64,000 bases of DNA from a virus (Duplodnaviria > Heunggongvirae > Uroviricota > Caudoviricetes): IMG/VR virus record IMGVR_UViG_2974665086_000001, positions 54,700-118,699 of that record; one strand, given 5' to 3'. Below are positions 4,601 to 32,431 of the stretch, piece by piece. The notes beneath the pieces were generated by a model, which saw only the letters and a program-made list of their open reading frames with translations, was not told where the DNA came from and searched no databases. The translations under genes and the position numbers were made by a program. Every line of letters begins with the position of its first letter. Positions within the stretch are counted from its first letter, which is position 1.

Positions 4601-5568
4601 TGTCAAAGGCTGGATTCACAATTAACTCACCTAGTATTCAGGCTTTGAGATTCTACAATGGCGACACTCGTCAGTTCTATAGTAGAATGACAATGGCTTC
4701 GAGTTCTACTGAAATGTGGGCTTTCCGCGTTTTGGAAGAATCGAACAACCGAGAACATTCTCGTATGATGATTCGTGCGAAGGATATCGAAATTGTCGGC
4801 GGTCCTACAACTAACGCTGAGTCAACTGACGCTGCATACGTACAAAACAACTGGGCACCTATGCTTTATATGCCTTGGGGTGGGCACGCAGGTGGCGGTA
4901 CACCAGGTAGACCGATTATTATGCTTTCTCACTTGAGAAACGATCCTGCCAGTGCGCCTTTGCACCGTTCAGGTTTTCAGGCATCGGTTGATCCTAATAT
5001 TACTGCTGTCATCTACTCAAACAACGGTTTGATTTTGCGTGACTTTACAAATAGTTATTACACAACATTCACCGCTGGTGATATCAATGGTGGTATTATT
5101 AAGTACAACCAGCTAGTGCAGAACACTTCTGGTGTGCAATTTAAGGAAAACTTTGAGAAGCTTCCAGAAATGGGATTGGACGTATTGAGAAATGCGCCTA
5201 TCTCTCGCTGGAACTACAAGGATAAGCCAGATGAAGCACGTATCGGTCCAATTGCGACCGACTTGCCAGACTGGTTAACTGTTGCTTCTACTCAGTTGCA
5301 TGAGGAAGAGGAAGACGCCGGGGACTACACAAAGACCAAGGTGCTAGCAACAAAGCAAGCAAACTCTAGTTATGAACTTACCTCCATTATCGGTGTAATG
5401 TGGCAAGCAATTAGAGAGCTAGACGAAGAGTTGGATGCTTACCGAACAGAACTCGGTCGTGAGCTACCTAAGAGACGACACACTCATAAGGCAGCAAAGG
5501 CTAAGGAGACTTGGGTTGAGAATATCGCAGAGCAGACAAACAAAATAGACACCGAAGAAAGTAAATGA
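1642..5568 (+). CDS. tail fibre/spike protein with FN3-like repeats and C-terminal intramolecular chaperone (peptidase S74-like)
   Basis: 1308 aa; repeated PxxPxxxT/FN3-like segments, Gly/Thr-rich beta-rich middle, C-terminal ...QFKENFEKLPEMGLDVLRNAPISRWNYKD... resembling autoproteolytic chaperone domain of tailspikes. Confidence 0.75.
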   Translation: MAEIQLQGLQPGQQCFVQVRTKAKGDPNKVSEWSSVFRFNVTNDLIAPKPVTNLTLVSEGSAFIAKWNAPTQNANGTNCTDLDGYYLVFKNTDNLSEVTREVYSSARSFTLDFETNKEMFGTARGNLTVEVKAVDRVGNRSTATTASASNPRPADVTGLVVTAAIEAVAMSWDKNTTDIDLVGYEVHSSTLSAGFTPGPSTLRWSGTGTGYTLPTSNPVPHHVKVFAVDIFGLTSQNAAYGVATPRTTTSTDGTPPGAPTAVTITSAADGKNAAIKLGWTPPIDADLDHYDIRYSLDNVDWSYLTVPAGTNEARLPSLLANTPYYVGIRAVDFSANRSGWTNAPTYPFTTVPDTTPIPTPAAPVAMSGVSKVLVAHTLEDSTGTFMTGLDRLEIHMQNDDSTPAPGPFSRLAEITVVGATFGVSTLVSLVTEPDTDYYWYVVAVGENGMRSAASAITLATPGLIEGAYIADATIDDAKINNLSANKLQANTAFINDLFIRSKLTIDDVTGQIVSSDYNAGTVTGWKIDKSGIIVNDGSIKAKALEIQSSPNICPPQYSGFEFNKQMYSDSSDNANTTYITTSSALMKLTMGLDTKYGNQALLVTDSGTAANSTLDLAPSGGWTVDVDALQTYIISAYIKNTSATSRTNRLQVTTNGGQTFQATVTGTSGNGYQRVSVVAALNNTSTKLKVSIVKVDAAATEYLLDGVQIERKIGALNTPSNYNPPGLTSLNGEGIVTGSIRSSAPAIGIPGQPAWSLNTQGNMQVGDALVRGNLVVGAGADTTNSMVKSSNYNVGSAGWMINGAGDVEFNSGIFRGTLGAGTVTTNSLAAGLVLSDRIVAGVANGARVEMMGGTGANAGLVAYSAATTKSMQINTSGVFTSYNTAGQRTIEMDAAGNFRTYNPASQTAVFTLSNTGSIAIANSGGDTFTASAAGDIVVRGTIKTANSGARIEIQPAVGITFYAATTSTSPRNYTRWIHSTFTDLDSVSKAGFTINSPSIQALRFYNGDTRQFYSRMTMASSSTEMWAFRVLEESNNREHSRMMIRAKDIEIVGGPTTNAESTDAAYVQNNWAPMLYMPWGGHAGGGTPGRPIIMLSHLRNDPASAPLHRSGFQASVDPNITAVIYSNNGLILRDFTNSYYTTFTAGDINGGIIKYNQLVQNTSGVQFKENFEKLPEMGLDVLRNAPISRWNYKDKPDEARIGPIATDLPDWLTVASTQLHEEEEDAGDYTKTKVLATKQANSSYELTSIIGVMWQAIRELDEELDAYRTELGRELPKRRHTHKAAKAKETWVENIAEQTNKIDTEESK

Positions 5569-5580
5569 TAGGATAAGTAT

Positions 5581-5748
5581 ATGGAAATTGACGCACAGAA
5601 AGTAATAGATAGACTCCGCAATAAGCTGTCCGAGAAGGACTGGGAGATTGTCTTACTAGAAACACAGATCGTAGACTTGCATGAAAAGTTAAATAAGCTC
5701 GAACCCAAGGACGGGCCGCAAGAGGGTGCAGAAATTGAAGTATCCTAA
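5581..5748 (+). CDS. small coiled-coil protein (not in ORF track, <60 aa)
   Basis: ATG 5581 preceded by AGGATAAGTAT; 55 codons to TAA at 5746. Confidence 0.25.
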   Translation: MEIDAQKVIDRLRNKLSEKDWEIVLLETQIVDLHEKLNKLEPKDGPQEGAEIEVS

Positions 5749-6088
5749 CGGCATCCTTGTAGAAAAGGGCGGTTGGGTGTATCGCGTTGCCAATGATACA
5801 CTGATCCCGCTCAGCAGTTGGCGTGCAGTCGAGTCCTGGCAGCAGCCTATTTTGGTGGGGGAAGAAGACTTGCTAGACGGTTATACTGTCTCTAGTGCCA
5901 AGCTTGGCTTTCGACCTGCATCAGTGGTAGAGTCCTTTACCACAGGTAAGAAATATTTTATCGAAGGAACGGTCAAGAGACTTATCTCGAATCCGGACTT
6001 TTGGGAACTTGGTTTCAACGAATGGGAAAACTTGATTTGCTCAGACGACGAAATTAATTTCCACGCAGACGGTGAACCACTTGTCTAG
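5726..6088 (+). CDS. hypothetical protein
   Basis: 120-aa ORF. Confidence 0.4.
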   Translation: MQKLKYPNGILVEKGGWVYRVANDTLIPLSSWRAVESWQQPILVGEEDLLDGYTVSSAKLGFRPASVVESFTTGKKYFIEGTVKRLISNPDFWELGFNEWENLICSDDEINFHADGEPLV

Positions 6089-25510: not shown

Positions 25511-25798
25511 GTGTTGACAATGACTGACGTTAACGTTACGCTTGAACCTGACGACGAACTTCCAGATGAAGCAGAAGTTATGCTAATTCTTGGCAAGGAA
25601 GAAGTTATTGTCCTACGTGAACTTCTTTTTGTAACTCAGTTGAGTACAAAGGGAAAGGGTGCTATTGTTGCAGCAATTGCAAAGGCACTCGATGATCTAG
25701 GGTTCGACCCGGAGCTAGATGAAGATTGGCTAACAAATCTGTGTACTGGTAAGATTATCACACAGAAGTCAGTTGACACCGGCATCTATTGGGTGTAA
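25511..25798 (+). CDS. hypothetical acidic protein
   Basis: 95-aa ORF. Confidence 0.4.
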   Translation: MLTMTDVNVTLEPDDELPDEAEVMLILGKEEVIVLRELLFVTQLSTKGKGAIVAAIAKALDDLGFDPELDEDWLTNLCTGKIITQKSVDTGIYWV

Positions 25799-25805
25799 AA
25801 TAAAT

Positions 25806-25843
25806 AGTACCCGAGCGTACTTCTCACGACTACGCTCGGTACT
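25806..25843 (+). terminator. stem-loop terminator
   Basis: CCGAGCGTA...TACGCTCGG 9-bp hairpin directly after the gene stop. Confidence 0.55.
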
Positions 25844-25846
25844 TAT

Positions 25847-25932
25847 ATCAGAGTCACAATGATGGTTAATTGTAGCTAGACTTTCAATCTAGTGTCCGTA
25901 AGGACTCGCGGGTTCAATTCCCGTCTCTGATA
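25847..25932 (+). tRNA. tRNA with long variable arm; anticodon loop CTTTCAA (UUC?) - identity uncertain
   Basis: Acceptor ATCAGAG/CTCTGAT, D-arm ACAAT..ATTGT, T-arm GCGGGTTCAATTCCCGT. Confidence 0.5.
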
Positions 25933-25989
25933 CGTTAAAGGATGAGTAGCGCTTAAATCATCCAAAAACCATCTAGGTTGCAAACTAGA

Positions 25990-26068
25990 TGAACAAAGGT
26001 ATTCAAATAGTGTTTAATGGCAACACACCCTGGTAATGGGAGTTCTGGGTTCGATTCCCAGTTTGTTT
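25990..26068 (+). tRNA. tRNA-like element (clean T-arm, noncanonical body)
   Basis: CTGGGTTCGATTCCCAG T-arm, acceptor GAACAAA/TTTGTTT; D/anticodon arms do not fold canonically. Confidence 0.3.
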
Positions 26069-26080
26069 ATTCTTTGTTAT

Positions 26081-26153
26081 GGGGTAGATTGTATAATGGC
26101 ATACTGCCAGCCTTCCAAGCTGGATTTAGCGGGTTCGATCCCCGTCTGCCTCA
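26081..26153 (+). tRNA. tRNA-Gly (UCC)
   Basis: Acceptor GGGGTAG/CTGCCTC, anticodon arm CCAGC-CTTCCAA-GCTGG, T-arm GCGGGTTCGATCCCCGT. Confidence 0.75.
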
Positions 26154-26159
26154 CGTTAT

Positions 26160-26258
26160 GAACCGGAGTTAGTTGTTTATCTGTTGCCAAAGTAGTATCG
26201 GTGAACCAACTATTCACCAGCCCGAGAAATCGGGTTTAACAATTAGCACAACAAGTTC
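26160..26258 (+). ncRNA. Y RNA-like element a (family of 12)
   Basis: 5' GAACCGG-N9-GTTTATC; 3' partner CAAGTTC; position 3 A pairs with T. Confidence 0.55.
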
Positions 26259-26267
26259 ATATCCAAT

Positions 26268-26338
26268 GTGACGTTGGTATAATGGTATTACATTTGCTTG
26301 CCAAGCAAATAACGCGGGTTCGATTCCCGTACGTCGCT
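26268..26338 (+). tRNA. tRNA-Gly (GCC)
   Basis: Acceptor GTGACGT/ACGTCGC, anticodon arm TTTGC-TTGCCAA-GCAAA, T-loop TTCGATT. Confidence 0.6.
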
Positions 26339-26345
26339 CTCGTTG

Positions 26346-26453
26346 AGCCGATTAGATATCGGTTATCATACTGGTTCGAATCCGGTCTTGTCTCTTTCGA
26401 GGGCACGATCAAGCACAATTTGGGTGCTATAATCCGATTCTTACACCATGCTC
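26346..26453 (+). ncRNA. Y RNA-like element b, contains internal T-arm (ACTGGTTCGAATCCGGT)
   Basis: 5' GAGCCGA-TTAGATATC-GGTTATC; 3' CATGCTC (G:C covariation). Confidence 0.6.
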
Positions 26454-26470
26454 AACTATAATTTAATGCT

Positions 26471-26647
26471 GAACCGATTGGTAGTTGGTTACCACGATAA
26501 AGCTGGACGAAAGAGCCAGCATACAAGTGTGGTCAATAAAAGGCTTAACACTTATGGTTTTACCCCGTTAGACGCTTTACCTTTTTGGCATCCGCAGGTA
26601 AAGTGAACGCTAGGATACGCCACTTCCAACAATCAGATAACATGTTC
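26471..26647 (+). ncRNA. Y RNA-like element c (long, ~177 nt)
   Basis: 5' GAACCGA-TTGGTAGTT-GGTTACC; 3' AACATGTTC; -10-like CTATAAT 9 nt upstream. Confidence 0.55.
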
Positions 26648-26739
26648 AGTTAAAGTTTCTAGGCCAGCGAATTTACAAAGGAGTCCCCGAGGGGAAAGTT
26701 TCAGCTTGTGCCTAGAAGGCCAGGGTTCGCCCTGGTTCT

Positions 26740-26811
26740 ATCCCGTTCGTATAGCGGTCAATACACTAGATTCTCAATCTAGCAACAGGGGTTCAACTCC
26801 CCTACGGGATA
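26740..26811 (+). tRNA. tRNA-Glu (CUC)
   Basis: Acceptor ATCCCGT/ACGGGAT perfect, D-arm GTAT..ATAC, anticodon arm CTAGA-TTCTCAA-TCTAG, T-arm AGGGGTTCAACTCCCCT. Confidence 0.7.
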
Positions 26812-26950
26812 CTCATGGCACCGAAGTTAATTTGGTAAAAACACCGAATGGTAGACGTATCGTTAACTGTAGTAGTGACGACTCGATCAGTTTGGCCGGT
26901 AGGCCCGGAGATTGGTGGTTCGATTCCGCCCGGAGCAATCTAACTTAAGG
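26812..26950 (+). ncRNA. structured RNA region with degenerate Y-like 5' motifs and a terminal T-arm; not a canonical tRNA
   Basis: CACCGAAGTTAATTTGGTAAAAAC and ACACCGAATGGTAGACGTATCGTTAAC resemble the family 5' arm; GGTGGTTCGATTCCGCC T-arm at the 3' end. Confidence 0.3.
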
Positions 26951-27419
26951 AATATATTATGAACTGGATTGACAACTTCAATCAAGACTTGTTAGAGTTT
27001 TTGCGTGAAGATGATGTAATTCCTAAAGGGTATTCGATCCATGAAATTCAGACCAGAGAGAGCACTAAAAAGTGTGGCGAAGGAACCTGCGACCTTACTT
27101 ACTTTCCATTGACCATATGGGTAATAAACACGTGGAAAACAAATTGTAAGATAATCGAGTCGGAGTACGACTTTGCAGAATTTATGCAATGGGTTGCCAA
27201 CAAACAAAGATCGATTAAGGATTCTAAGTGAAATCTCTTATGAGCGCAGCAGTTCTGATAATCGCAGCAATAGGAGTTATTTCTCTTATTTACACGACTG
27301 CAATGTTCGGAATCGAAACAACGTTTAAGTGCGGTGCACTAGAGTCCGTGCCGGTTGCAGAAAAAGAATGCTGGCAGCCTTTTACAGGTAATGTTAAGCT
27401 AGACTAATCAGGAGATATA

Positions 27420-27665
27420 ATGGCAATTCAGTTCAAGAGACTGGGCAAGGTTCGTCCCAGTGCAGGGAGTCACTTCCCTTATACACAAACTAATGTGCAC
27501 TATTTCATCATCGAAAACGGTGTACCTGCTCCGATCTTTGTTGATCGACAGTTCGTTAAAGATATCAAGTCCAGTGACCCGGATATTTATGCAGTTTGGC
27601 CGGGTAAGTACACCAGTAATATGTTTGCCATTGACAAGCTAGAGCTTGCTAAAGCCTTTATCTAG
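27420..27665 (+). CDS. hypothetical protein
   Basis: 81-aa ORF with RBS GGAGATATAATG. Confidence 0.35.
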   Translation: MAIQFKRLGKVRPSAGSHFPYTQTNVHYFIIENGVPAPIFVDRQFVKDIKSSDPDIYAVWPGKYTSNMFAIDKLELAKAFI

Positions 27666-27674
27666 GAGTACAGT

Positions 27675-28127
27675 ATGAAGTACGCAATCGCAATCGGAGA
27701 TTACTCCGATGACGGGCATGGCAAATGTGATCGCTATGTGGTAGAGTCAGACAAAGACTTCGATTTAAAAGATATCGCAAAAGCCTACCAGCAGTCTCGT
27801 AAAGAGCTGGGTAAAGGTATTGAAGATATCGCTACGTCTTATGAGTCATGGCCTCTGGAATCAGATGCACAGGTTTTTGTTGATGCAGGTTTGCAATGGC
27901 CTAAGGACTGGTTTGATCCCGATGAGGACGATCCAGAAGACTTGGCAGAAGTGCTTGCAGAAAACTGGGACGAAGATGTTTGGGTTTATGTATTCGAGTT
28001 CATGGTAAAGCGTCATCTGCCTGAATTTAACTTAAAGATTGTTAAAAGTGATCTGCCCGTTTTGTTCGGGGATTGGGGAGCAGTAGCCACCAAGGGTCAA
28101 ATTGGCTACGGAACGTTTAGCATGTGA
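27675..28127 (+). CDS. hypothetical acidic protein
   Basis: 150-aa ORF. Confidence 0.4.
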   Translation: MKYAIAIGDYSDDGHGKCDRYVVESDKDFDLKDIAKAYQQSRKELGKGIEDIATSYESWPLESDAQVFVDAGLQWPKDWFDPDEDDPEDLAEVLAENWDEDVWVYVFEFMVKRHLPEFNLKIVKSDLPVLFGDWGAVATKGQIGYGTFSM

Positions 28128-28330
28128 TGATTTGGCTAGCTAATGCTATTATGATATTCTGTGTAGCAACTATGGCCGGGATGATAATTTTTGTGATAGC
28201 GACGATTGTCGGGCAAGTTCTCAAATGGGCTTGCACTTTCCTGCTAGACCTAGTAGAGTTCATCTCAGCGCAGATCAGAGACTACCGATCAGCTCGCAGA
28301 CACAAGCGCTTGACAGACAACAAGCACTAA
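28124..28330 (+). CDS. small membrane protein
   Basis: 68 aa, single long hydrophobic segment. Confidence 0.35.
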   Translation: MMIWLANAIMIFCVATMAGMIIFVIATIVGQVLKWACTFLLDLVEFISAQIRDYRSARRHKRLTDNKH

Positions 28331-28384
28331 GATAGACTGAATTACGAAACACAGTGAATGAAATTGTTGCCTAACAAAGGAATT

Positions 28385-28413
28385 TGACAATGCTCTGAAC
28401 ATAGTGTAGAGTA
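28385..28413 (+). promoter_or_regulatory. sigma70-like promoter TTGACA-N17-TAGAGT driving the ncRNA/tRNA array
   Basis: TTGACA at 28385-28390, 17-nt spacer, TAGAGT 28408-28413; predicted start about 3 nt before element f. Confidence 0.45.
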
Positions 28414-28423
28414 GAACAAGTAC

Positions 28424-28502
28424 GAAACGGATAGCACGTCGGTTATCAACCAATTTGAATTAGTTATGGCCTATGGCCTCTCCGACAGCTAATAACATTT
28501 TC
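28424..28502 (+). ncRNA. Y RNA-like element f (variant GAAACGG)
   Basis: 5' GAAACGG-ATAGCACGT-CGGTTATC; 3' CATTTTC - double compensatory change (C4>A with G>T) preserves pairing. Confidence 0.55.
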
Positions 28503-28512
28503 GTACTACCAA

Positions 28513-28585
28513 TGGTCACTAGCTTAACTGGCAAAGCTACACCCTGTTAAGGTGTCCGATGTAGGTTCGAATCCTACGTGATCAG
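28513..28585 (+). tRNA. tRNA-Asn (GUU)
   Basis: Acceptor TGGTCAC/GTGATCA, D-arm GCTT..AAGC, anticodon arm ACACC-CTGTTAA-GGTGT, T-arm GTAGGTTCGAATCCTAC. Confidence 0.75.
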
Positions 28586-28591
28586 CTTTAA

Positions 28592-28720
28592 GAACCGAAT
28601 GTAGAGTCGTTTATCCTTCTGCAAAAAGGCTAGACTGGGTTCGAATCCCGGTGCCCCTGCCAACTTAGGGGTATAGTGTAATGGTAGCACAGTAAAAACG
28701 CGATTCTCGGCAACATGTTC
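28592..28720 (+). ncRNA. Y RNA-like element d with internal permuted tRNA-like module
   Basis: 5' GAACCGA-ATGTAGAGTC-GTTTATC; 3' AACATGTTC; internal CTGGGTTCGAATCCCGG T-arm, TGCCCCT-gccaactt-AGGGGTA closed acceptor-like stem, then TAGTGTAATGGTAGCAC D-arm. Confidence 0.6.
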
Positions 28721-28749
28721 TTATCAACTTCAATCAGAATGGAAGCAAA

Positions 28750-28905
28750 ATGCCAGAAGAAACAGTAACGATTAGCAAGCAGCAGTATGATAGTCTTGTT
28801 GAGGACAGTGAATTTCTCCAAAGATTGCAAGACGGCGGGGTAGACAATTGGCCTGGATACAGCGATTGTTACACGCAAGAAAAATTCGAAGCAGCCTTCG
28901 GATAA
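28750..28905 (+). CDS. small protein (51 aa) embedded in the ncRNA array; not in ORF track
   Basis: ATG 28750 preceded by GGAAGCAAA; MPEETVTISKQQYDSLVEDSEFLQRLQDGGVDNWPGYSDCYTQEKFEAAFG. Confidence 0.3.
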   Translation: MPEETVTISKQQYDSLVEDSEFLQRLQDGGVDNWPGYSDCYTQEKFEAAFG

Positions 28906-28917
28906 CATAAACTTTCT

Positions 28918-29009
28918 GAACCGGCAAGGTATTGGTTATCTAACAATGAATAAAACAAATCGGGGCAACGGTAACACCGGCCCTATATCCGATCCTTAAA
29001 CACATGTTC
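28918..29009 (+). ncRNA. Y RNA-like element e1
   Basis: 5' GAACCGG-CAAGGTATT-GGTTATC; 3' CACATGTTC. Confidence 0.55.
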
Positions 29010-29034
29010 AGAACAACAATTTAAAAAGCTTTTT

Positions 29035-29150
29035 GAGCCGACTGGTAATTGGTTATCTTACAATTAATTTGATAATAAACCCGCGTGAGTTCGATTCTCA
29101 CTTGGTCACATGGCTGAGGGGACCAAATCTCCGATTCCAACAACATGCTC
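29035..29150 (+). ncRNA. Y RNA-like element e2 with internal T-arm plus closed acceptor-like hairpin
   Basis: 5' GAGCCGA-CTGGTAATT-GGTTATC (compare hY4 GGUCCGAUGGUAGUGGGUUAUC); GTGAGTTCGATTCTCAC then TTGGTC..GACCAA hairpin; 3' AACATGCTC. Confidence 0.6.
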
Positions 29151-29172
29151 AAAATTTAACTTAATATCTTAA

Positions 29173-29237
29173 GAGCCGGATGACAACGGTTAACCAACAC
29201 TCATATTGTTCCTACACCCGTTGTCAGTTACATGCTC
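29173..29237 (+). ncRNA. Y RNA-like element e3 (short, 65 nt)
   Basis: 5' GAGCCGG; 8-bp upper stem GACAACGG/CCGTTGTC; 3' CATGCTC; TAATAT -10-like 6 nt upstream. Confidence 0.6.
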
Positions 29238-29255
29238 TCAAGATCAAAGACTTAT

Positions 29256-29347
29256 GAACCGGAGAACTTCGTTTATCTTGTCAATTCGAGACGGTAGGGT
29301 TCGATTCCCTCCGTATGGGCTGGTGCCTATCGAAGTTCATAACACGT
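29256..29347 (+). ncRNA. Y RNA-like element e4 with internal T-arm
   Basis: 5' GAACCGG; 8-bp upper stem GAACTTCG/CGAAGTTC; AGGGTTCGATTCCCT; 3' CACGTTC. Confidence 0.6.
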
Positions 29348-29354
29348 TCATACT

Positions 29355-29425
29355 ATGTGGCACACCGTAGGCTGTGGGAGCGTGACTGTAAATCACTACT
29401 CTGAGAGTTCGAATCTCTCGTGCCA
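29355..29425 (+). tRNA. tRNA, anticodon GUA (Tyr?) with short variable arm - identity uncertain
   Basis: Acceptor GTGGCAC/GTGCCAC perfect, anticodon arm CGTGA-CTGTAAA-TCACT, T-arm GAGAGTTCGAATCTCTC; D-arm irregular. Confidence 0.45.
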
Positions 29426-29431
29426 CACCAA

Positions 29432-29490
29432 GCGAGCCGGATTGTGACGTTTATCTTATGGCATAAACACGTTACAAGCGAACATGCTTG
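29432..29490 (+). ncRNA. Y RNA-like element e5 (short)
   Basis: 5' GAGCCGG-ATTGTGAC-GTTTATC directly after the tRNA 3' end; 3' AACATGCTT. Confidence 0.5.
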
Positions 29491-29497
29491 CTATAAT
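29488..29497 (+). promoter_or_regulatory. extended -10 (TGcTATAAT) placing a start at the 5' G of element e6
   Basis: ttgctataat at 29488-29497; GAACCGC begins 29503. Confidence 0.45.
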
Positions 29498-29502
29498 TTT
29501 AC

Positions 29503-29633
29503 GAACCGCAGTAAATCGTTAATCAAAATCAGCTCAGATGTGGGTTCGAGTCCCACCCGTTAGGTTAAAAAACTTATCGGTAGCCCAACTGGCAGAGGCA
29601 GCCGACCCTTCTACGATTTATGACAACATGTTC
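29503..29633 (+). ncRNA. Y RNA-like element e6 with internal T-arm
   Basis: 5' GAACCGC-AGTAAATC-GTTAATC; upper stem CAGTAAATCG/CGATTTA; GTGGGTTCGAGTCCCAC; 3' AACATGTTC. Confidence 0.6.
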
Positions 29634-29647
29634 GTAATCAATACCCT

Positions 29648-29718
29648 AGTACCAGGCTAACAAACATAGGCGGCGGTCATAGTTTTCAGGTTCGAATCCT
29701 GATAGGGTAGCTTTTCTG
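29648..29718 (+). tRNA. tRNA-like element (acceptor and T-arm present, no foldable anticodon arm)
   Basis: TACCCTA/TAGGGTA acceptor and TCAGGTTCGAATCCTGA T-arm; body does not give canonical D/anticodon arms. Confidence 0.35.
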
Positions 29719-29842
29719 AGCCGACTATGTATCGGTTATCGCATTCGGAGCCGGAAGAGAAGGTTCGATTCCTTCACCCCCGACCATAGGGGGTTAGTGT
29801 ACTGGATAGCACTCTGTAAATCCCGATCATGCCAACATGCTC
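29718..29842 (+). ncRNA. Y RNA-like element g, directly upstream of rsr, with permuted tRNA-like module (paralog of d)
   Basis: 5' GAGCCGA-CTATGTATC-GGTTATC; GAAGGTTCGATTCCTTC T-arm, ACCCCC-gaccat-AGGGGGT closed stem, TAGTGTACTGGATAGCAC D-arm; 3' AACATGCTC. Confidence 0.65.
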
Positions 29843-29899
29843 AGAAACCAAACATATTCAACCAAAAGGGTTGAACCGAGAAGATAAAGAGGATGAAGA

Positions 29900-31504
29900 A
29901 TGTCAGCACTAGGTAATGTTAAGTTGAAGGAACCAAAGTCTACTCCGCAGACTGAAAAGGCGGTAAAGGGTCAGAAGCGTAACAACGCTGGTGGCTTTAG
30001 CTTTAAGATCGATGACAAGGATCGTTTTCGACGTTTCCTGACAATCGGTTCTGATGGTGGAACTTACTACGTGGGTGAGCAGAAGCTTACGGAAGAGCAC
30101 GTTAAGTTTGTTCAGAAGATCATCAAGCGTGATGGTTTGACAGCAGTCGAAGAGATTGTTAATGTCAGCTCTAACGCACTGGCACCGAAGAATACACAGG
30201 CTTTGTTCGCATTGGCTGTAGCATTCACTTCGGAAGACCTTAAGGTAAAGGCCGCTGCCAAGGCAGCATTGCCCAAGGTTGCTCGTACTTCTACTCATCT
30301 TTTTGAGTTCGCACAGTTCATCGAGAATATCGCTGGCTGGGGACGCGCTAAGACTAGTGCGGTTGCGAGCTGGTACGAAGACAAGACTCCTGATAGCCTT
30401 GCTTACCAGGCAGTTAAGTACCGTCAGCGTAATGGTTGGACTCACCGAGACCTGTTCCGTTTGTCTCATCCTCAGAAGGTTGACAGCGGACTTGCAGAGT
30501 GGATTCTGCGCGGGAACAACGAAAACGTTCCTGAAATTATCTCCATTTTCGAAGAGTTGCAGGCAGCTACCACAGAGGCCAAGGCACTTAAGATTATGAA
30601 GCGTAATGCAGATGCAAACATTGCATGGGAATTCTTGCCAACTGAGCTTCACAACTCGGCAAAGATTTGGTCTGAACTGTTCTACCGTGGAATGGGTCAC
30701 ACAGCTCTGCTACGTAACACAAGTCGTATGCACAAGCTTGGTCTGTTTAACGATATGAAGTTCGCAGCAGATTACGCAGCAGCTCTCGCAGACGAAAACC
30801 TTATTCGTAAGGGTCGTATGCATCCGATTCAGTACCTTAATGCTTACGCAGCATACAACGGTGATCCTGACGGACAGGCAAGTTACTGGGGTGGCGATTG
30901 CCATAAGGGTGTTGACGGTGCTAATAACAAGATCGTCGCAGCACTGGAAGCGGGATACAATTCTGCTTTCCAGAACGTTGAGCCTGCCAACAAGCGTACT
31001 TTGATGGGACTGGACGTGTCCGGTTCAATGTCTCAGGCCGCTTCTGGGCTTAAGCTCAGTTGTGCAACTTTGGGCGCAGCATTCAGTCAGACTTTGGTTA
31101 AGCGTGAACCTTACGCGGTTATCAAGGGCTTCACGAATGAGTTTAAGGACTTGGGAATCAGTGATTCCGATAACCTTAAGACTGTAATGTCCAAGGTGAC
31201 AAGGCAGAACTTCGGTCGTACCGATTGTTCACTGCCTATGGTTTGGGCACTGGAAAAGAAGGTAGAAGTTGATACCTTCGTGGTGTTCACGGACAACGAG
31301 ACATACGCGGGACGCCAGCACCCTCACCAGGCGCTAGAGCGTTACCGTCAGCAGATGGGCATTCCTGCACGCTTGGTTGTGGTTGCGGCTACAGCAACGC
31401 GTTTCTCGATTGCCGATCCTACGGACGCTGGTAGCCTGGACGTGTCGGGGTTCGATGCGAGCACGCTAAAGACTATCGCAGACTTTAGTGCAGGTCGTAT
31501 CTAG
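29900..31504 (+). CDS. rsr: Ro60/Rsr ortholog (TROVE domain + vWA domain)
   Basis: RFRRFLTIGSDGGTYYVGEQKL and ALFALAVA align with human Ro60 [22 protein letters not shown] / MLFALAIC; C-terminal MIDAS motif MGLDVSGSMS; 534 aa. Confidence 0.9.
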   Translation: MSALGNVKLKEPKSTPQTEKAVKGQKRNNAGGFSFKIDDKDRFRRFLTIGSDGGTYYVGEQKLTEEHVKFVQKIIKRDGLTAVEEIVNVSSNALAPKNTQALFALAVAFTSEDLKVKAAAKAALPKVARTSTHLFEFAQFIENIAGWGRAKTSAVASWYEDKTPDSLAYQAVKYRQRNGWTHRDLFRLSHPQKVDSGLAEWILRGNNENVPEIISIFEELQAATTEAKALKIMKRNADANIAWEFLPTELHNSAKIWSELFYRGMGHTALLRNTSRMHKLGLFNDMKFAADYAAALADENLIRKGRMHPIQYLNAYAAYNGDPDGQASYWGGDCHKGVDGANNKIVAALEAGYNSAFQNVEPANKRTLMGLDVSGSMSQAASGLKLSCATLGAAFSQTLVKREPYAVIKGFTNEFKDLGISDSDNLKTVMSKVTRQNFGRTDCSLPMVWALEKKVEVDTFVVFTDNETYAGRQHPHQALERYRQQMGIPARLVVVAATATRFSIADPTDAGSLDVSGFDASTLKTIADFSAGRI

Positions 31505-31508
31505 TTAG

Positions 31509-31543
31509 TTGTCGGGGAGTAGTGATAAATTACTCCCCGACTT
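31509..31543 (+). terminator. stem-loop terminator after rsr
   Basis: GTCGGGGAGTA...TACTCCCCGAC 11-bp hairpin. Confidence 0.6.
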
Positions 31544-31576: not shown

Positions 31577-32431
31577 ATGTTTTTGTTTATCACCGCGATT
31601 ATTTTGTTTATCGCAGCGGGTATTGCTTATCCTTTGTTCAAGAATGATAGTATTCTTCCCGCAGTTGGACTTGCGCTGGTTGGCTTGATTGCGCTAGTGT
31701 TTGCTTCAACTACAATCGTGTCAACAAAGAACGTCGGTGTGGTAACTACGTTTGGTCGTCCTACGGATAGCTTGTCGAATGGCTTGCATGTCAAGGCACC
31801 TTGGTCTAAGGTTACAGAGCTTGACGGCGCGGTTCAGATTAATCACGAAACTTCGGACGTTCGTCTCGGCAATAACAGCATGGCCGGGGTAGAGAATTCG
31901 ATTCAGTGGCGTATTACTCCTGACAAGGCCGATCAGCTTTTCTTGGATTACCGAAGCTTTGACTCCATTAAGGATAACCTGGTTTCTCGTCAGATCACTG
32001 CAAGTTTGAATGAAGTCTTTGCTAGCTACAACCCACTTGAAGCTGTAGCAATTGCTAAGCCGGGTGAAGCAGCAGTACCGGCCCAGCCGGGTATTGATCT
32101 GAATAAGCTTTCTAAGCTTGTTGAGGAAGACTTGCGTGAGCGAGTTAATGGTAAGGTTGAAATCATCAGCGTTATCATTCCCTTGGTTCGTTTCGATGAC
32201 CAGACACAGCAAAAGCTTGACGCTTTCCAGCAGGAAATCGGTAACACTCGTATCGCACAGCAGAAGGAACTTACTGCTGGTGCAGAAGCAGAAGCTAACA
32301 AGGCTTTGTCGGCATCTGTTAATAACGATCCGAACGTTCTCGTTTCGAAGTGCTTGGATATCGTCAAGTCAAACAACCACTCTCCGCTCGGTTGCTGGCC
32401 GGGTACCAATACAGTTATCCCAGCCAAGTGA
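31577..32431 (+). CDS. SPFH/band-7 (prohibitin/HflK-like) membrane protein
   Basis: N-terminal TM helix then SPFH-like core (VGVVTTFGRPTD...LHVKAPW...) and coiled-coil C-terminus. Confidence 0.6.
   Translation: MFLFITAIILFIAAGIAYPLFKNDSILPAVGLALVGLIALVFASTTIVSTKNVGVVTTFGRPTDSLSNGLHVKAPWSKVTELDGAVQINHETSDVRLGNNSMAGVENSIQWRITPDKADQLFLDYRSFDSIKDNLVSRQITASLNEVFASYNPLEAVAIAKPGEAAVPAQPGIDLNKLSKLVEEDLRERVNGKVEIISVIIPLVRFDDQTQQKLDAFQQEIGNTRIAQQKELTAGAEAEANKALSASVNNDPNVLVSKCLDIVKSNNHSPLGCWPGTNTVIPAK

What the first reader, a model, noticed from the sequence alone, without database searches (positions are those of the whole stretch)
26160..29842. Array of at least 12 paralogous Y-RNA-like small RNAs interleaved with tRNAs, next to a Ro60 ortholog
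Twelve elements (about 60-180 nt each) share a 5' motif GARCCGR-N8-10-YGKTTATC and a 3' motif AACAYGYTC. Position 3 of the 5' motif covaries perfectly with the 3' motif (A with T in 7 copies, G with C in 5). Element f carries a double compensatory change (gaaAcgg / catTttc). Several copies add a 7-8-bp upper stem (GACAACGG/CCGTTGTC; GAACTTCG/CGAAGTTC). This gives a conserved terminal helix with a bulged C, then an upper helix, then a variable internal module, which is the Y RNA architecture. The 5' arm is close to the vertebrate Y RNA 5' end (hY4 GGUCCGAUGGUAGUGGGUUAUC versus here GAGCCGACUGGUAAUUGGUUAUC). The array ends 58 nt upstream of a clear Ro60/Rsr gene. Bacterial and phage Rsr genes are usually accompanied by one or two Y RNAs. 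A 12-copy family co-organised with tRNAs would be unusual. It suggests a phage RNA-processing or decoy system built on Ro60.
Basis: partly seen in the sequence, partly recalled or inferred. Interest (0 to 1): 0.92.

Follow-up and report, generated by a model that had tools for sequence, protein, structure and literature searches.

The report
Twelve Y RNA genes beside phage Ro60
Rhodococcus phage Trina carries twelve small-RNA genes of the known bacterial Y RNA type, threaded between tRNA genes just upstream of its Ro60 gene; this is the largest such array among 161 Ro60 loci examined, but arrays of 3-7 turn out to be normal, so it is an extreme case of a known system and not a new one.

Summary
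The window is Rhodococcus phage Trina. Twelve + strand elements (62-183 nt, 26157-29847) share four parts: a 7-bp closing stem, an internal loop (5' CGR, 3' ACAY), a 5-9-bp upper helix, and GUU(U)AYC. Five of the seven closing pairs show compensatory changes; 98.8% of cells pair, and no shuffle or slid register reaches this. Six copies carry a T arm. Copies e, k and l (and probably b) have the circularly permuted tRNA layout that defines YrlA. The next gene is a full-length Ro60/Rsr, followed by a terminator.

A covariance model built only from elements next to rsr in 57 other phage and bacterial loci matches 11 of the 12 end to end (29-81 bits). They are therefore YrlA/YrlB-type Y RNAs.

The premise "usually one or two" is wrong. 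The same model finds about 2.8 copies per rsr locus, and up to 7, in both phages and bacteria. Trina's 11-12 is the maximum seen but lies on a continuum. Direct abutment to tRNAs is largely phage-specific (37 of 140 elements against 4 of 129).

Rsr binding, expression and function are untested. The most likely role is a panel of Rsr adaptors or gates, released by tRNA-processing enzymes.

The parts
26157..26261 (+). Y RNA a (105 nt). It has no T arm; its module holds two hairpins. It lies 2 nt after tRNA-Gly(tcc) and 6 nt before tRNA-Gly(gcc).
   Evidence: Motif plus pairing scan; 7-bp closing stem and 8-bp upper helix; model R1 33.0 bits, E 6e-06, end to end.
26342..26456 (+). Y RNA b (115 nt). 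It has a T arm at 26370-26386, a long acceptor-like hairpin and a D-like hairpin at 26413-26427. It lies 2 nt after tRNA-Gly(gcc).
   Evidence: R1 49.5 bits, E 6e-10; T loop GTTCGAATC; coordinates.
26468..26650 (+). Y RNA c (183 nt, the longest). It has a large module without a T arm. The annotated 52-aa CDS SEA_TRINA_126 overlaps it.
   Evidence: Found by motif plus pairing only. R1 does not span it (7.7 bits). The CDS has no Pfam match.
28419..28507 (+). Y RNA d (89 nt). It carries the compensatory change GAAA/UUUC in a 9-bp closing stem. It starts 7 nt after a promoter-like site and ends 5 nt before tRNA-Asn.
   Evidence: R1 29.9 bits, E 3e-05.
28589..28723 (+). Y RNA e (135 nt), YrlA type. 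Its parts are: V hairpin 28615-28629; T arm 28635-28651; acceptor 3' strand with G and CCA 28652-28662; acceptor 5' strand 28667-28673 (7 bp); D arm 28676-28690. It lies 2 nt after tRNA-Asn.
   Evidence: R1 75.2 bits, E 4e-16; ARAGORN calls a tRNA on the circular permutation; coordinates; Rfam YrlA partial match 17.4 bits.
28750..28905 (+). A 51-aa protein gene inside the array: a T7 gp5.9-like RecBCD inhibitor. It is not an RNA element but lies in the same apparent transcription unit.
   Evidence: Pfam PF25708, E 3.4e-18.
28914..29013 (+). Y RNA f (100 nt). It has no T arm. Its upper helix is 5+4 bp with a bulged U.
   Evidence: R1 33.1 bits, E 5.5e-06.
29031..29154 (+). Y RNA g (124 nt). It has a T arm at 29085-29101 and an acceptor-like hairpin at 29102-29126, but no D arm.
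   Evidence: R1 42.7 bits, E 3e-08.
29172..29238 (+). Y RNA h (67 nt). It is minimal: a 9-bp upper helix closed by a 27-nt loop. The stem is extendable to 29167-29243.
   Evidence: R1 29.1 bits, E 3e-06 with filters off.
29253..29352 (+). Y RNA i (100 nt). It has a T arm at 29296-29310 and one further hairpin, but no D arm. It ends 4 nt before tRNA-Tyr.
   Evidence: R1 46.5 bits, E 3e-09.
29431..29492 (+). Y RNA j (62 nt, the shortest). It consists of the Rsr-binding module and a short loop. It starts directly after tRNA-Tyr, which has an encoded CCA. Its closing stem contains a G-U pair.
   Evidence: R1 32.0 bits, E 7e-07 with filters off.
29499..29637 (+). Y RNA k (139 nt), YrlA type. It has a T arm at 29540-29556, an acceptor-like hairpin at 29557-29580 and a D arm at 29583-29599. 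Its 5' loop reads CGC rather than CGR.
   Evidence: R1 71.5 bits, E 3e-15; Rfam YrlA full-length match at 23.7 bits, E 0.084, below the gathering score of 69.
29713..29847 (+). Y RNA l (135 nt), YrlA type. Its parts are: T arm 29759-29775; ACCCCCG-A-CCA 29776-29786; acceptor 5' strand 29788-29794; D arm 29797-29812. It ends 53-58 nt before the rsr start codon.
   Evidence: R1 80.8 bits, E 2e-17.
29900..31504 (+). rsr: a Ro60 ortholog of 534 aa.
   Evidence: Pfam TROVE (1e-38) and vWA_Ro60 (2e-59); full-length match to D. radiodurans Rsr 2NVO (2e-98) and X. laevis Ro60 1YVP (3e-88); annotated as Ro-like RNA binding protein.
31511..31541 (+). Terminator-like 13-bp hairpin with a T-rich tail, closing the unit after rsr.
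28384..28412 (+). Promoter-like site TTGACA-N17-TAGAGT just before element d. A second site lies at 28310-28338, and another at 25773-25801 ahead of the first tRNA.
   Evidence: These are consensus matches only, and the total count is not above shuffles.
26081..26154 (+). tRNA-Gly(tcc), one of the interleaved tRNAs. The others are 26268-26339 Gly(gcc), 26740-26812 Glu(ctc), 28513-28586 Asn(gtt) and 29357-29430 Tyr(gta), plus a degenerate tRNA-like element at 29642-29710.

Best explanation
The twelve elements are paralogous genes for bacterial-type Y RNAs: YrlA-like when they carry a permuted tRNA-like domain, YrlB-like when they do not. They partner the phage's own Ro60/Rsr protein.

Shown by sequence:
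- Each RNA closes on itself with a 7-9-bp stem.
- A conserved asymmetric loop follows (5' C-G-R opposite 3' A-C-A-Y). In it the first C can bulge and the G can pair with the Y, as in the Ro-binding helix of animal Y RNAs.
- Next come a 5-9-bp helix and GUU(U)AYC.
- Each copy then has a variable module.

Inferred:
- The elements are made as parts of two long transcripts that also contain tRNAs, a small anti-RecBCD gene and rsr. The first transcript holds a-c. The second holds d-l plus rsr and runs from promoter-like sites near 28310-28412 to the terminator at 31511.
- Eight of the twelve lie within 0-6 nt of a tRNA or tRNA-like element. RNase P and the tRNA 3'-end enzymes would therefore cut most Y RNA ends for free (tRNA punctuation).
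- The shared module docks on the outer surface of the Rsr ring. The variable module then either gates the ring or tethers Rsr to another factor. The precedent is PNPase in D. radiodurans, Salmonella and Thermus phage phiLo.
- Twelve different modules would give the phage a panel of adaptors. Six are built on tRNA mimicry.
- Copies e and l have an acceptor stem (7 bp in e; 6 contiguous pairs in l) followed by an encoded CCA. Like M. smegmatis YrlA, they are predicted to be cut by RNase P into two-piece RNAs with a tRNA-like CCA end.
For: - Twelve copies on one strand, with compensatory changes in 5 of 7 closing pairs and copy-specific upper helices.
- Seven G-U pairs in the helices would be A-C mismatches on the other strand, so the structure is read from the + strand RNA.
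- Covariance model R1 was trained on 57 elements next to rsr from other phages and bacteria, with no Trina sequence. It matches 9 copies with default filters and 11 with filters off, all end to end, at E 2e-17 to 3e-05. Everything else it finds in the 64 kb is a partial hit on tRNA T arms.
- R1 gives 224 + 224 hits in 160 rsr loci, every one on the rsr strand.
- T loops are present in b, e, g, i, k and l. ARAGORN calls tRNAs on circular permutations of e, g, k and l, with the Y stem in place of the anticodon arm.
- The layout matches the published YrlA description: GNCGAA-like motif, YUAY, then V, T, AS and D.
- M. smegmatis YrlA, which has a 7-bp acceptor stem, is cleaved by RNase P and ends in CCA.
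- The adjacent gene is a full-length Ro60/Rsr, followed by a terminator.
- Thermus phage Ro60 binds two phage Y-like RNAs and host PNPase.
Against: - No expression or binding data exist for Trina; no paper on this phage was found.
- The Rfam YrlA model stays far below its gathering score (best 23.7 against 69 bits). The mycobacteriophage Alice element, from a phage group in which YrlA was published, also stays below it (37 bits).
- Copy c is not spanned by R1.
- The D and T stems of e and l differ from the near-invariant YrlA consensus.
- The promoter matches are not more numerous than in shuffles.
- The partner of the variable modules is unknown. PNPase tethering is extrapolated from three other systems.
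- Trina's annotated genes in this window include no PNPase or RtcB.
Confidence: 0.8

Rival explanations
1. The identity is the same (Y RNAs) but the job differs. The tRNA-like copies act mainly as decoys or competitive inhibitors of host tRNA-targeting defence nucleases or other tRNA-binding proteins. Rsr serves to stabilise them or to clear cleaved tRNA fragments. They would not act as tethers to an exonuclease.
For: - The elements sit in a 27-tRNA phage region, and six mimic tRNA while lacking an anticodon loop.
- Hughes et al. 2020 suggested that the YrlA tRNA-like domain, which is not cut by the anticodon nuclease, could be a competitive inhibitor of it.
- An anti-RecBCD gene lies inside the array.
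- Abutment to tRNAs is largely phage-specific (37/140 against 4/129), as is an encoded CCA (7/63 against 2/71).
Against: - Half of the copies have no tRNA-like part.
- Bacteria that are not under phage-type selection carry similar arrays of 3-7.
- No tRNA-targeting defence is known for this host.
- Nothing here tests nuclease inhibition.
Confidence: 0.2
2. The shared stem-loop module is a processing or stability cassette. It would be a recognition site for a host or phage endoribonuclease that punctuates the polycistronic tRNA transcript. It would have nothing to do with Rsr, and the adjacency would be coincidental.
For: Eight of the twelve abut tRNAs by 0-6 nt. Long stems with internal loops can be RNase III or RNase E targets (general knowledge).
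Against: - The same module is found next to rsr, always on the rsr strand, in 160 other loci. These include phage arrays with no tRNA (L151, L178) and bacterial loci with no tRNAs nearby.
- None occurs in the other tRNA clusters of the Trina window.
- The 5' motif matches the published Rsr-contact motif.
Confidence: 0.05
3. The tRNA-like copies (b, e, g, k, l) are circularly permuted tRNA genes. After end-joining and processing they would yield decoding tRNAs, as in the red alga Cyanidioschyzon merolae.
For: ARAGORN calls tRNAs on the permuted sequences. Copy e has a 7-bp acceptor stem and l has 6 contiguous pairs; both have a discriminator base and an encoded CCA.
Against: - The anticodon arm is replaced by a roughly 20-bp Y stem, and there is no 7-nt anticodon loop.
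- The same closing module is shared with six copies that have no tRNA features.
- No RtcB-type ligase is annotated in this window of Trina.
- The architecture is exactly that of YrlA, whose crystal structure shows a tRNA mimic and not a tRNA.
Confidence: 0.03

Closest known systems
YrlA and YrlB, the bacterial Y RNAs encoded next to rsr (Chen et al. 2013, 2014; Rfam RF02553), including mycobacteriophage YrlA
   Same: - They lie on the same strand as rsr and within 4 kb of it.
- They have a GNCGAA-like motif at the 5' end of a closing stem, and YUAY after the helix.
- YrlA has the permuted tRNA-like domain in the order V, T arm, acceptor-like stem-loop, D arm.
- A shorter partner lacks the full domain.
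- They are processed from one precursor.
- Mycobacteriophage Alice has the same module (GGCCGA...CGGTTAYC...CCATG) in three copies.
   Different: - There are twelve copies rather than the 1-2 described.
- The 3' strand of the Rsr-binding helix is also conserved (ACAY plus complement), whereas Chen et al. saw only the 5' strand in Salmonella and M. smegmatis.
- The D and T stems of e and l depart from the near-invariant YrlA consensus.
- The Rfam gathering score is not reached.
- The elements are tightly interleaved with real tRNAs.
M. smegmatis YrlA (cleaved by RNase P, ends in CCA)
   Same: Copy e has a 7-bp acceptor-like stem and l has 6 contiguous pairs, the feature that makes M. smegmatis YrlA an RNase P substrate. 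In both the 3' strand is followed by a discriminator base and CCA.
   Different: In Trina the CCA is encoded. In M. smegmatis the terminal CA is added after cleavage. Cleavage is not shown for Trina.
Thermus phage phiLo Ro60 with Yrl1 and Yrl2 (NAR 2025)
   Same: A phage-encoded Ro60 has Y-like RNAs directly upstream. Those RNAs have a conserved CGAA-type motif in a stem-bulge-stem, and they bind the phage Ro60 and host PNPase.
   Different: There are two RNAs rather than twelve, and neither tRNA interleaving nor tRNA-like modules are reported. The phage lineage is unrelated.
Metazoan Y RNAs (hY1, hY3, hY4, hY5)
   Same: - The 5' arm is alike: CCGA, an 8-nt helix strand, then GUUAUC. hY4 reads GGUCCGAUGGUAGUGGGUUAUC and Trina g reads GAGCCGACUGGUAAUUGGUUAUC.
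- The closing helix has a possible bulged C followed by G-U.
- The design is modular, and the genes form a small paralogous cluster.
   Different: The Rfam Y_RNA model gives no match at E<=10. Animal Y RNAs have no tRNA-like domain. Whether the GUUAUC identity reflects homology or convergence is open.
D. radiodurans Yrn1, Yrn2 and further small RNAs near rsr
   Same: Several small RNAs are encoded beside rsr. Both strands of the Ro-binding helix are retained, and a T arm is present.
   Different: The order of the T-like and D-like arms is opposite to that in YrlA and Trina. They belong to a separate lineage according to Chen et al..

Membership tests
Y RNA (functional definition) | Bound by Ro60/Rsr in vivo | not testable with these tools
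   This needs immunoprecipitation or gel shift with the product of 29900-31504.
YrlA/YrlB-type bacterial Y RNA | Encoded within about 4 kb of rsr on the same strand | tested here: met
   All twelve are on the + strand, 53-3743 nt upstream of the rsr start at 29900.
YrlA/YrlB-type bacterial Y RNA | GNCGAA(N0-1)G-like motif at the 5' end, in a closing stem | tested here: met
   The form is G-A-R-C-C-G-R in 10 of 12 copies. Copy d has GAAACGG and copy k has CGC. The fit to GNCGAA is approximate: the CG and the following purine are kept, but the second A often is not. Rsr-adjacent elements of other phages and bacteria read GGGCCGR or GGGTCGR.
YrlA/YrlB-type bacterial Y RNA | Significant match to a covariance model of family members from other genomes | tested here: met
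   Model R1 (57 non-Trina sequences) matches 11 of 12 end to end, at 29.1-80.8 bits. Copy c is not matched.
YrlA (Rfam RF02553) | Score at or above the Rfam gathering threshold (69 bits) | tested here: not met
   The best is 23.7 bits (k), then 17.4 bits (e). The mycobacteriophage Alice element and the Streptomyces phage elements also fail (37.4, 39.6 and 31.2 bits). The threshold therefore excludes phage members in general.
YrlA | Permuted tRNA-like domain in the order YUAY, V hairpin, T arm, acceptor-like stem-loop, D arm | tested here: met
   Fully met in e, k and l and probably in b. Partly met in g and i (T arm without D arm). Absent in a, c, d, f, h and j, which are therefore YrlB-like at most.
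YrlA | Near-invariant T-stem and D-stem sequences; tRNA-type modifications by TruB and DusA | tested here: inconclusive
   The T loop is kept in six copies. Copy k is close to the consensus D arm (GUAGCCCAACUGGCAGAGGC). Copies e and l have a different D stem (GUGU/GCAC). Modifications cannot be tested.
Metazoan Y RNA (Rfam RF00019) | Match to the Y_RNA covariance model | tested here: not met
   There is no Y_RNA hit at E<=10 in 25700-30000. Only the 5' arm is similar.
Ro60/Rsr protein | TROVE ring domain plus C-terminal vWA domain, full length | tested here: met
   Pfam TROVE and vWA_Ro60; residues 11-533 align to 2NVO and 17-531 to 1YVP.
Permuted tRNA gene (C. merolae type) | A complete cloverleaf, including an anticodon stem with a 7-nt loop, after permutation | tested here: not met
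   The anticodon arm is replaced by the long Y stem. ARAGORN accepts the permuted forms only by calling a 49-61-nt "intron".

The most novel reading that the evidence does not exclude
Large tRNA-carrying phages have expanded and diversified the Ro60 adaptor set into a panel, up to twelve in Trina, whose members are excised by tRNA-processing enzymes. The tRNA-mimic members would act during infection as decoys for, or recruiters against, host tRNA-targeting or RNA-decay defences. Some of them are cut by RNase P and end in CCA. This would make Ro60 with its Y RNAs a phage counter-defence or RNA-takeover module. The junction in copy e reads T arm, acceptor 3' strand, G, CCA, 4-nt spacer, acceptor 5' strand, D arm. 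On this reading it is a living example of the proposed origin of YrlA from tandem tRNA genes.
Probability: 0.15. Interest if true: 0.8.

Novelty: new variant of a known kind. Interest (0 to 1): 0.5.

Why it matters
What bacterial and phage Y RNAs do, and why they mimic tRNA, is still open. Trina offers twelve natural variants of one Rsr-binding scaffold in a cultivable phage-host pair. Some have full tRNA-like modules, some partial ones and some none. This makes the adaptor model testable: one can ask which module binds which partner.

The survey done here also corrects the picture of the family. Y RNA genes are usually multi-copy, at about 3 per rsr locus and up to 7-12. In phages they are often packed against tRNAs, and many are currently mis-annotated as small ORFs or pseudo-tRNAs.

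Tried and rejected
- Rfam at gathering thresholds finds only tRNAs. At E<=10 it gives only two weak YrlA hits and no Y_RNA hit.
- A first, purely structural scanner was too noisy and missed copies with interrupted helices. I replaced it with a motif-plus-pairing scanner and then with an independent covariance model.
- Searching IMG/VR with the single Trina Rsr protein found no relatives. An 8-protein alignment was needed.
- The exact-pattern scan GAGCCGA-N8-CGGTTATC in IMG/VR returned 107 stretches. That is about what I estimated chance would give for 15 fixed bases, but a few were true arrays (L037, L078, L086, L106, L111).
- I looked for a donor tRNA for the tRNA-like modules among Trina's own tRNAs. 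There was no convincing match; the best was the 5' half of k against tRNA-Leu(taa), scoring 20 of 35.
- The annotated 209-nt pseudo-tRNA SEA_TRINA_136 is rejected as an artefact. It joins the D-arm half of k to the T-arm half of l, whose acceptor strands do not pair.
- Two reviews on bacterial Y RNAs (PMC10870794, PMC6047535) are not held, and the supplements of Chen 2014 are not held. I could not check what maximum copy number has been reported before.

Full report
**What the window is.** The region is 100% identical to Rhodococcus phage Trina (MF668286 / NC_042040, 139 kb; window position = record position - 54699). ARAGORN and Rfam find 27 tRNA genes in the window, all on the + strand. The ORF at 29900-31504 has TROVE and Ro60-type vWA domains. 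It aligns over its full length with D. radiodurans Rsr (2NVO, E 2e-98) and X. laevis Ro60 (1YVP, E 3e-88).

**Check of the observation.** A regular-expression scan recovers twelve 5' motifs, all on the + strand between 26160 and 29740. The strict form occurs 11 times against 1.2 expected in shuffles, and not at all in the other 60 kb. Each has the 3' motif at its far end.

I anchored only on the CG of the 5' motif and the CAY of the 3' motif. On that basis the nine flanking bases on each side pair in 94 of 108 cells. The pairing includes three positions outside the motifs, which were not used for detection. Permuting partners among the copies never reaches this (0 of 20000).

The pair-counting tool gives the following for a 7-bp stem:
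- 98.8% of cells are paired.
- Five pairs have changes on both sides.
- The covariation score is 0.70, against 0.20 in shuffles (0 of 500).
- Slid registers pair only 26-39%.

Each copy also has its own 5-9-bp upper helix ending at G|UU(U)AYC. The mean is 6.6 bp with its own partner and 4.0 bp with foreign partners (0 of 20000). The seven G-U pairs in these helices would be A-C mismatches on the opposite strand, so the structure belongs to the + strand RNA.

**Anatomy.** From the outside inward, each element has four parts:
- A closing stem of 7-9 bp.
- An asymmetric loop, 5' C-G-R opposite 3' (A)ACAY. In it the C can bulge and the G can pair with the Y in 11 of 12 copies.
- The upper helix, either continuous (a, e, h, i, j, k) or 5+3-5 bp with a bulge or a 1x1 mismatch (b, c, d, f, g, l).
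- GUU(U)AYC, followed by a variable module of about 15-130 nt.

Six modules contain a canonical T loop (b, e, g, i, k, l). In e, k and l (and probably b) the order is V hairpin, T arm, acceptor-like hairpin, D arm. That is a tRNA circularly permuted at the anticodon arm, with the Y stem in place of that arm. On head-to-tail dimers of e, g, k and l, ARAGORN calls tRNAs if it may treat the Y stem as an intron.

Copy e has a perfect 7-bp acceptor stem whose 3' strand is followed by G-CCA. Copy l has ACCCCCG-A-CCA.

**Comparison with what is published.** Chen et al. 2014 define YrlA by these features:
- a GNCGAA(N0-1)G motif near the 5' end;
- a conserved YUAY that begins the V loop;
- T and D stem-loops with an acceptor-like stem-loop between them;
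- a position within 4 kb of rsr on the same strand.

They found 355 such RNAs in 254 bacteria and 22 phages. M. smegmatis YrlA has a 7-bp acceptor stem. It is cut by RNase P and carries CCA, and its partner YrlB is processed from the same precursor. The YrlA crystal structure confirms the permuted-tRNA fold, and a dimeric-tRNA origin has been proposed. Trina's elements fit this description.

The Rfam YrlA model gives only 23.7 bits (k) and 17.4 bits (e), against a gathering score of 69. The element of mycobacteriophage Alice (from a phage group in which YrlA was published) and those of Streptomyces phages also score only 31-40 bits. That threshold is therefore not informative for phages.

**Independent membership test.** I collected rsr loci with 10-kb flanks from IMG/VR (80 loci) and from GTDB genomes (80 loci). 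From them I took 57 non-redundant elements with T and D arms (28 phage, 29 bacterial, none from Trina). I aligned them and built covariance model R1.

On the 64-kb window R1 matches nine Trina elements end to end:

| copy | bits |
|---|---|
| l | 80.8 |
| e | 75.2 |
| k | 71.5 |
| b | 49.5 |
| i | 46.5 |
| g | 42.7 |
| f | 33.1 |
| a | 33.0 |
| d | 29.9 |

With filters off it also matches j (32.0) and h (29.1). Every other hit is a partial match to tRNA T arms. Only the 183-nt copy c is not spanned; it is supported by the motif, both helices and its position.

**How unusual is twelve?** R1 finds 224 hits in the 80 phage loci and 224 in the 80 bacterial loci, all on the rsr strand.
- Phage contigs commonly have 4-7 full-length copies. 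Examples are L151 with seven tandem copies and no tRNA, and L122, L124, L126, L133 and L160 with six.
- Streptomyces BE-cluster phages have about five.
- Actinobacteria typically have three or four.
- Two Chloroflexi MAGs have seven.
- The simpler motif-plus-pairing scanner gives the same ranking: bacteria 0-4, phage contigs 0-8, Trina 12. It gives 140 + 129 hits on the rsr strand against 20 + 12 on the other strand.

Multi-copy arrays are therefore the rule, and Trina is the largest of 161 loci but on a continuum. One caveat is that the flanks were limited to 10 kb and the scanners are imperfect. I found no paper that describes large arrays. Two relevant reviews and the supplementary tables of Chen et al. 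were not available.

**Relation to tRNAs.** In Trina, eight of the twelve elements lie 0-6 nt from a tRNA or tRNA-like element. In phage loci 37 of 140 elements lie within 20 nt of a same-strand tRNA, and in bacterial loci 4 of 129 do. Gordonia phage Sixama alternates tRNA, Y, tRNA, Y, tRNA, Y with 2-6-nt spacers.

The elements are not mere tRNA leaders or trailers. Copies f-g-h-i, b-c and j-k follow each other directly, and arrays without tRNAs exist. The simplest reading is that tRNA-processing enzymes define most of the Y RNA ends.

**Transcription signals.**
- TTGACA-N17-TAGAGT lies at 28384-28412, just before d.
- A second TTGACA site lies at 28310.
- Another lies at 25773, before the first tRNA.
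- A 13-bp hairpin terminator follows rsr at 31511-31541.

These are consensus matches only. Inside the second unit there is also a real protein gene, a T7 gp5.9-like RecBCD inhibitor at 28750-28905.

**Mechanism.** What is shown is the conserved fold, the family membership and the linkage to rsr. The following is inferred from the family:
- The shared module binds the Rsr ring.
- The variable module gates the ring or tethers it to a partner. The precedent is PNPase in D. radiodurans, Salmonella and Thermus phage phiLo.
- Twelve modules would then form a panel of adaptors.

One alternative role for the tRNA mimics is competitive inhibition of tRNA-targeting nucleases. It has been suggested for Salmonella YrlA, and it fits a phage that carries its own tRNA set and an anti-RecBCD gene in the same unit. 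Nothing here tests it.

**Verdict.** The Y RNA interpretation is supported, more precisely as the YrlA/YrlB type. The claim of exceptional copy number is true only in degree. This is a new organisational variant of a known system: the largest array seen, punctuated by tRNAs, with diversified modules. It is of moderate interest.

Noticed in passing
window 28750-28905 (+): A 51-aa ORF inside the Y RNA array is a T7 gp5.9-like RecBCD inhibitor (Pfam PF25708, E 3e-18). GenBank calls it hypothetical, while RefSeq lists a host RecBCD nuclease inhibitor among the features of this region. An anti-defence gene is thus apparently co-transcribed with the tRNAs, Y RNAs and rsr.
   Followed up: partly
window 26448-26606 (+): The annotated CDS SEA_TRINA_126 (52 aa, hypothetical) lies almost wholly inside Y RNA c and has no Pfam match. 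It is probably a spurious ORF call. In mycobacteriophage Alice (L004), the CDSs gp218 and gp219 (5601-5940) are likewise overlapped by Y-like elements at 5568-5921.
   Followed up: partly
window 29578-29786 (+): The annotated 209-nt pseudo "tRNA-OTHER" (SEA_TRINA_136) joins the acceptor 5' strand and D arm of Y RNA k to the T arm and acceptor 3' strand of Y RNA l. These strands do not pair with each other, so this is an annotation artefact caused by the permuted tRNA-like domains.
   Followed up: yes
window 29642-29710 (+): A degenerate tRNA-like element lies between k and l. It has a 7-bp acceptor stem (UACCCUA/UAGGGUA) and a normal T arm, but no recognisable D or anticodon arm. ARAGORN does not call it, and Rfam's tRNA model does not call it at E<=10. 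Its fold is no better than shuffles (z -0.7).
   Followed up: partly
window 26813-26940 (+) and 26657-26737 (+): There are two unannotated stretches after Y RNA c and tRNA-Glu. The first is a 128-nt region ending in a T arm (GGUGGUUCGAUUCCGCC) with a weak acceptor-like closing stem. The second is a long hairpin followed by a GC-rich hairpin (z -2.3). No family matches either. They may be further small RNAs or degenerate tRNAs.
   Followed up: partly
window 28635-28690 (+): The centre of Y RNA e reads: T arm, acceptor 3' strand, discriminator G, CCA, 4-nt spacer, complementary acceptor 5' strand, U8-A9, D arm. That is exactly the junction expected between two tandem copies of one tRNA gene. It fits the published idea that YrlA arose from dimeric tRNA transcripts. 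Here the acceptor-like stem would come from true acceptor strands and not from the spacer.
   Followed up: partly
window 29813-29821 versus 29388-29396: Y RNA l contains CUGUAAAUC just after its D arm. This is identical to the anticodon-loop region of the neighbouring tRNA-Tyr(gta). By my estimate a 9-nt match has a chance probability of a few percent, so it may mean nothing.
   Followed up: no
L234, L273, L256 (Chloroflexi MAG contigs); L151, L178 (IMG/VR): Y RNA arrays of 6-7 copies occur beside rsr in Anaerolineae and Aggregatilineales genomes, and in phage contigs without any tRNAs. In several bacterial loci the copies lie downstream of rsr. Multi-copy Y RNA arrays seem to be general and under-annotated.
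   Followed up: partly
IMG/VR and GTDB rsr loci: An encoded CCA at the tRNA-equivalent positions 74-76 of the acceptor-like stem is found in 7 of 63 phage elements, 2 of 71 bacterial elements and 2 of 5 Trina elements that have a T arm. About 1 in 64 is expected by chance. About 44% of the elements have a contiguous 7-bp acceptor stem, so RNase P cleavage of Y RNAs may be commoner than the single M. smegmatis case suggests.
   Followed up: partly
window 31577-32431 (+): The gene directly downstream of rsr, after the terminator, encodes a Band 7/SPFH membrane protein (Pfam E 5e-19). In Streptomyces phages Francob and TunaTartare a hypothetical protein of similar size follows rsr. I did not check whether this pairing is conserved.
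   Followed up: no
window 25773, 26969, 28310, 28384, 32702 (+): Five promoter-like sites share an exact TTGACA -35 box with 17-18-nt spacing. Most lie ahead of tRNA/Y RNA blocks. This may be a phage promoter class read by the host sigma-70-type holoenzyme.
   Followed up: no
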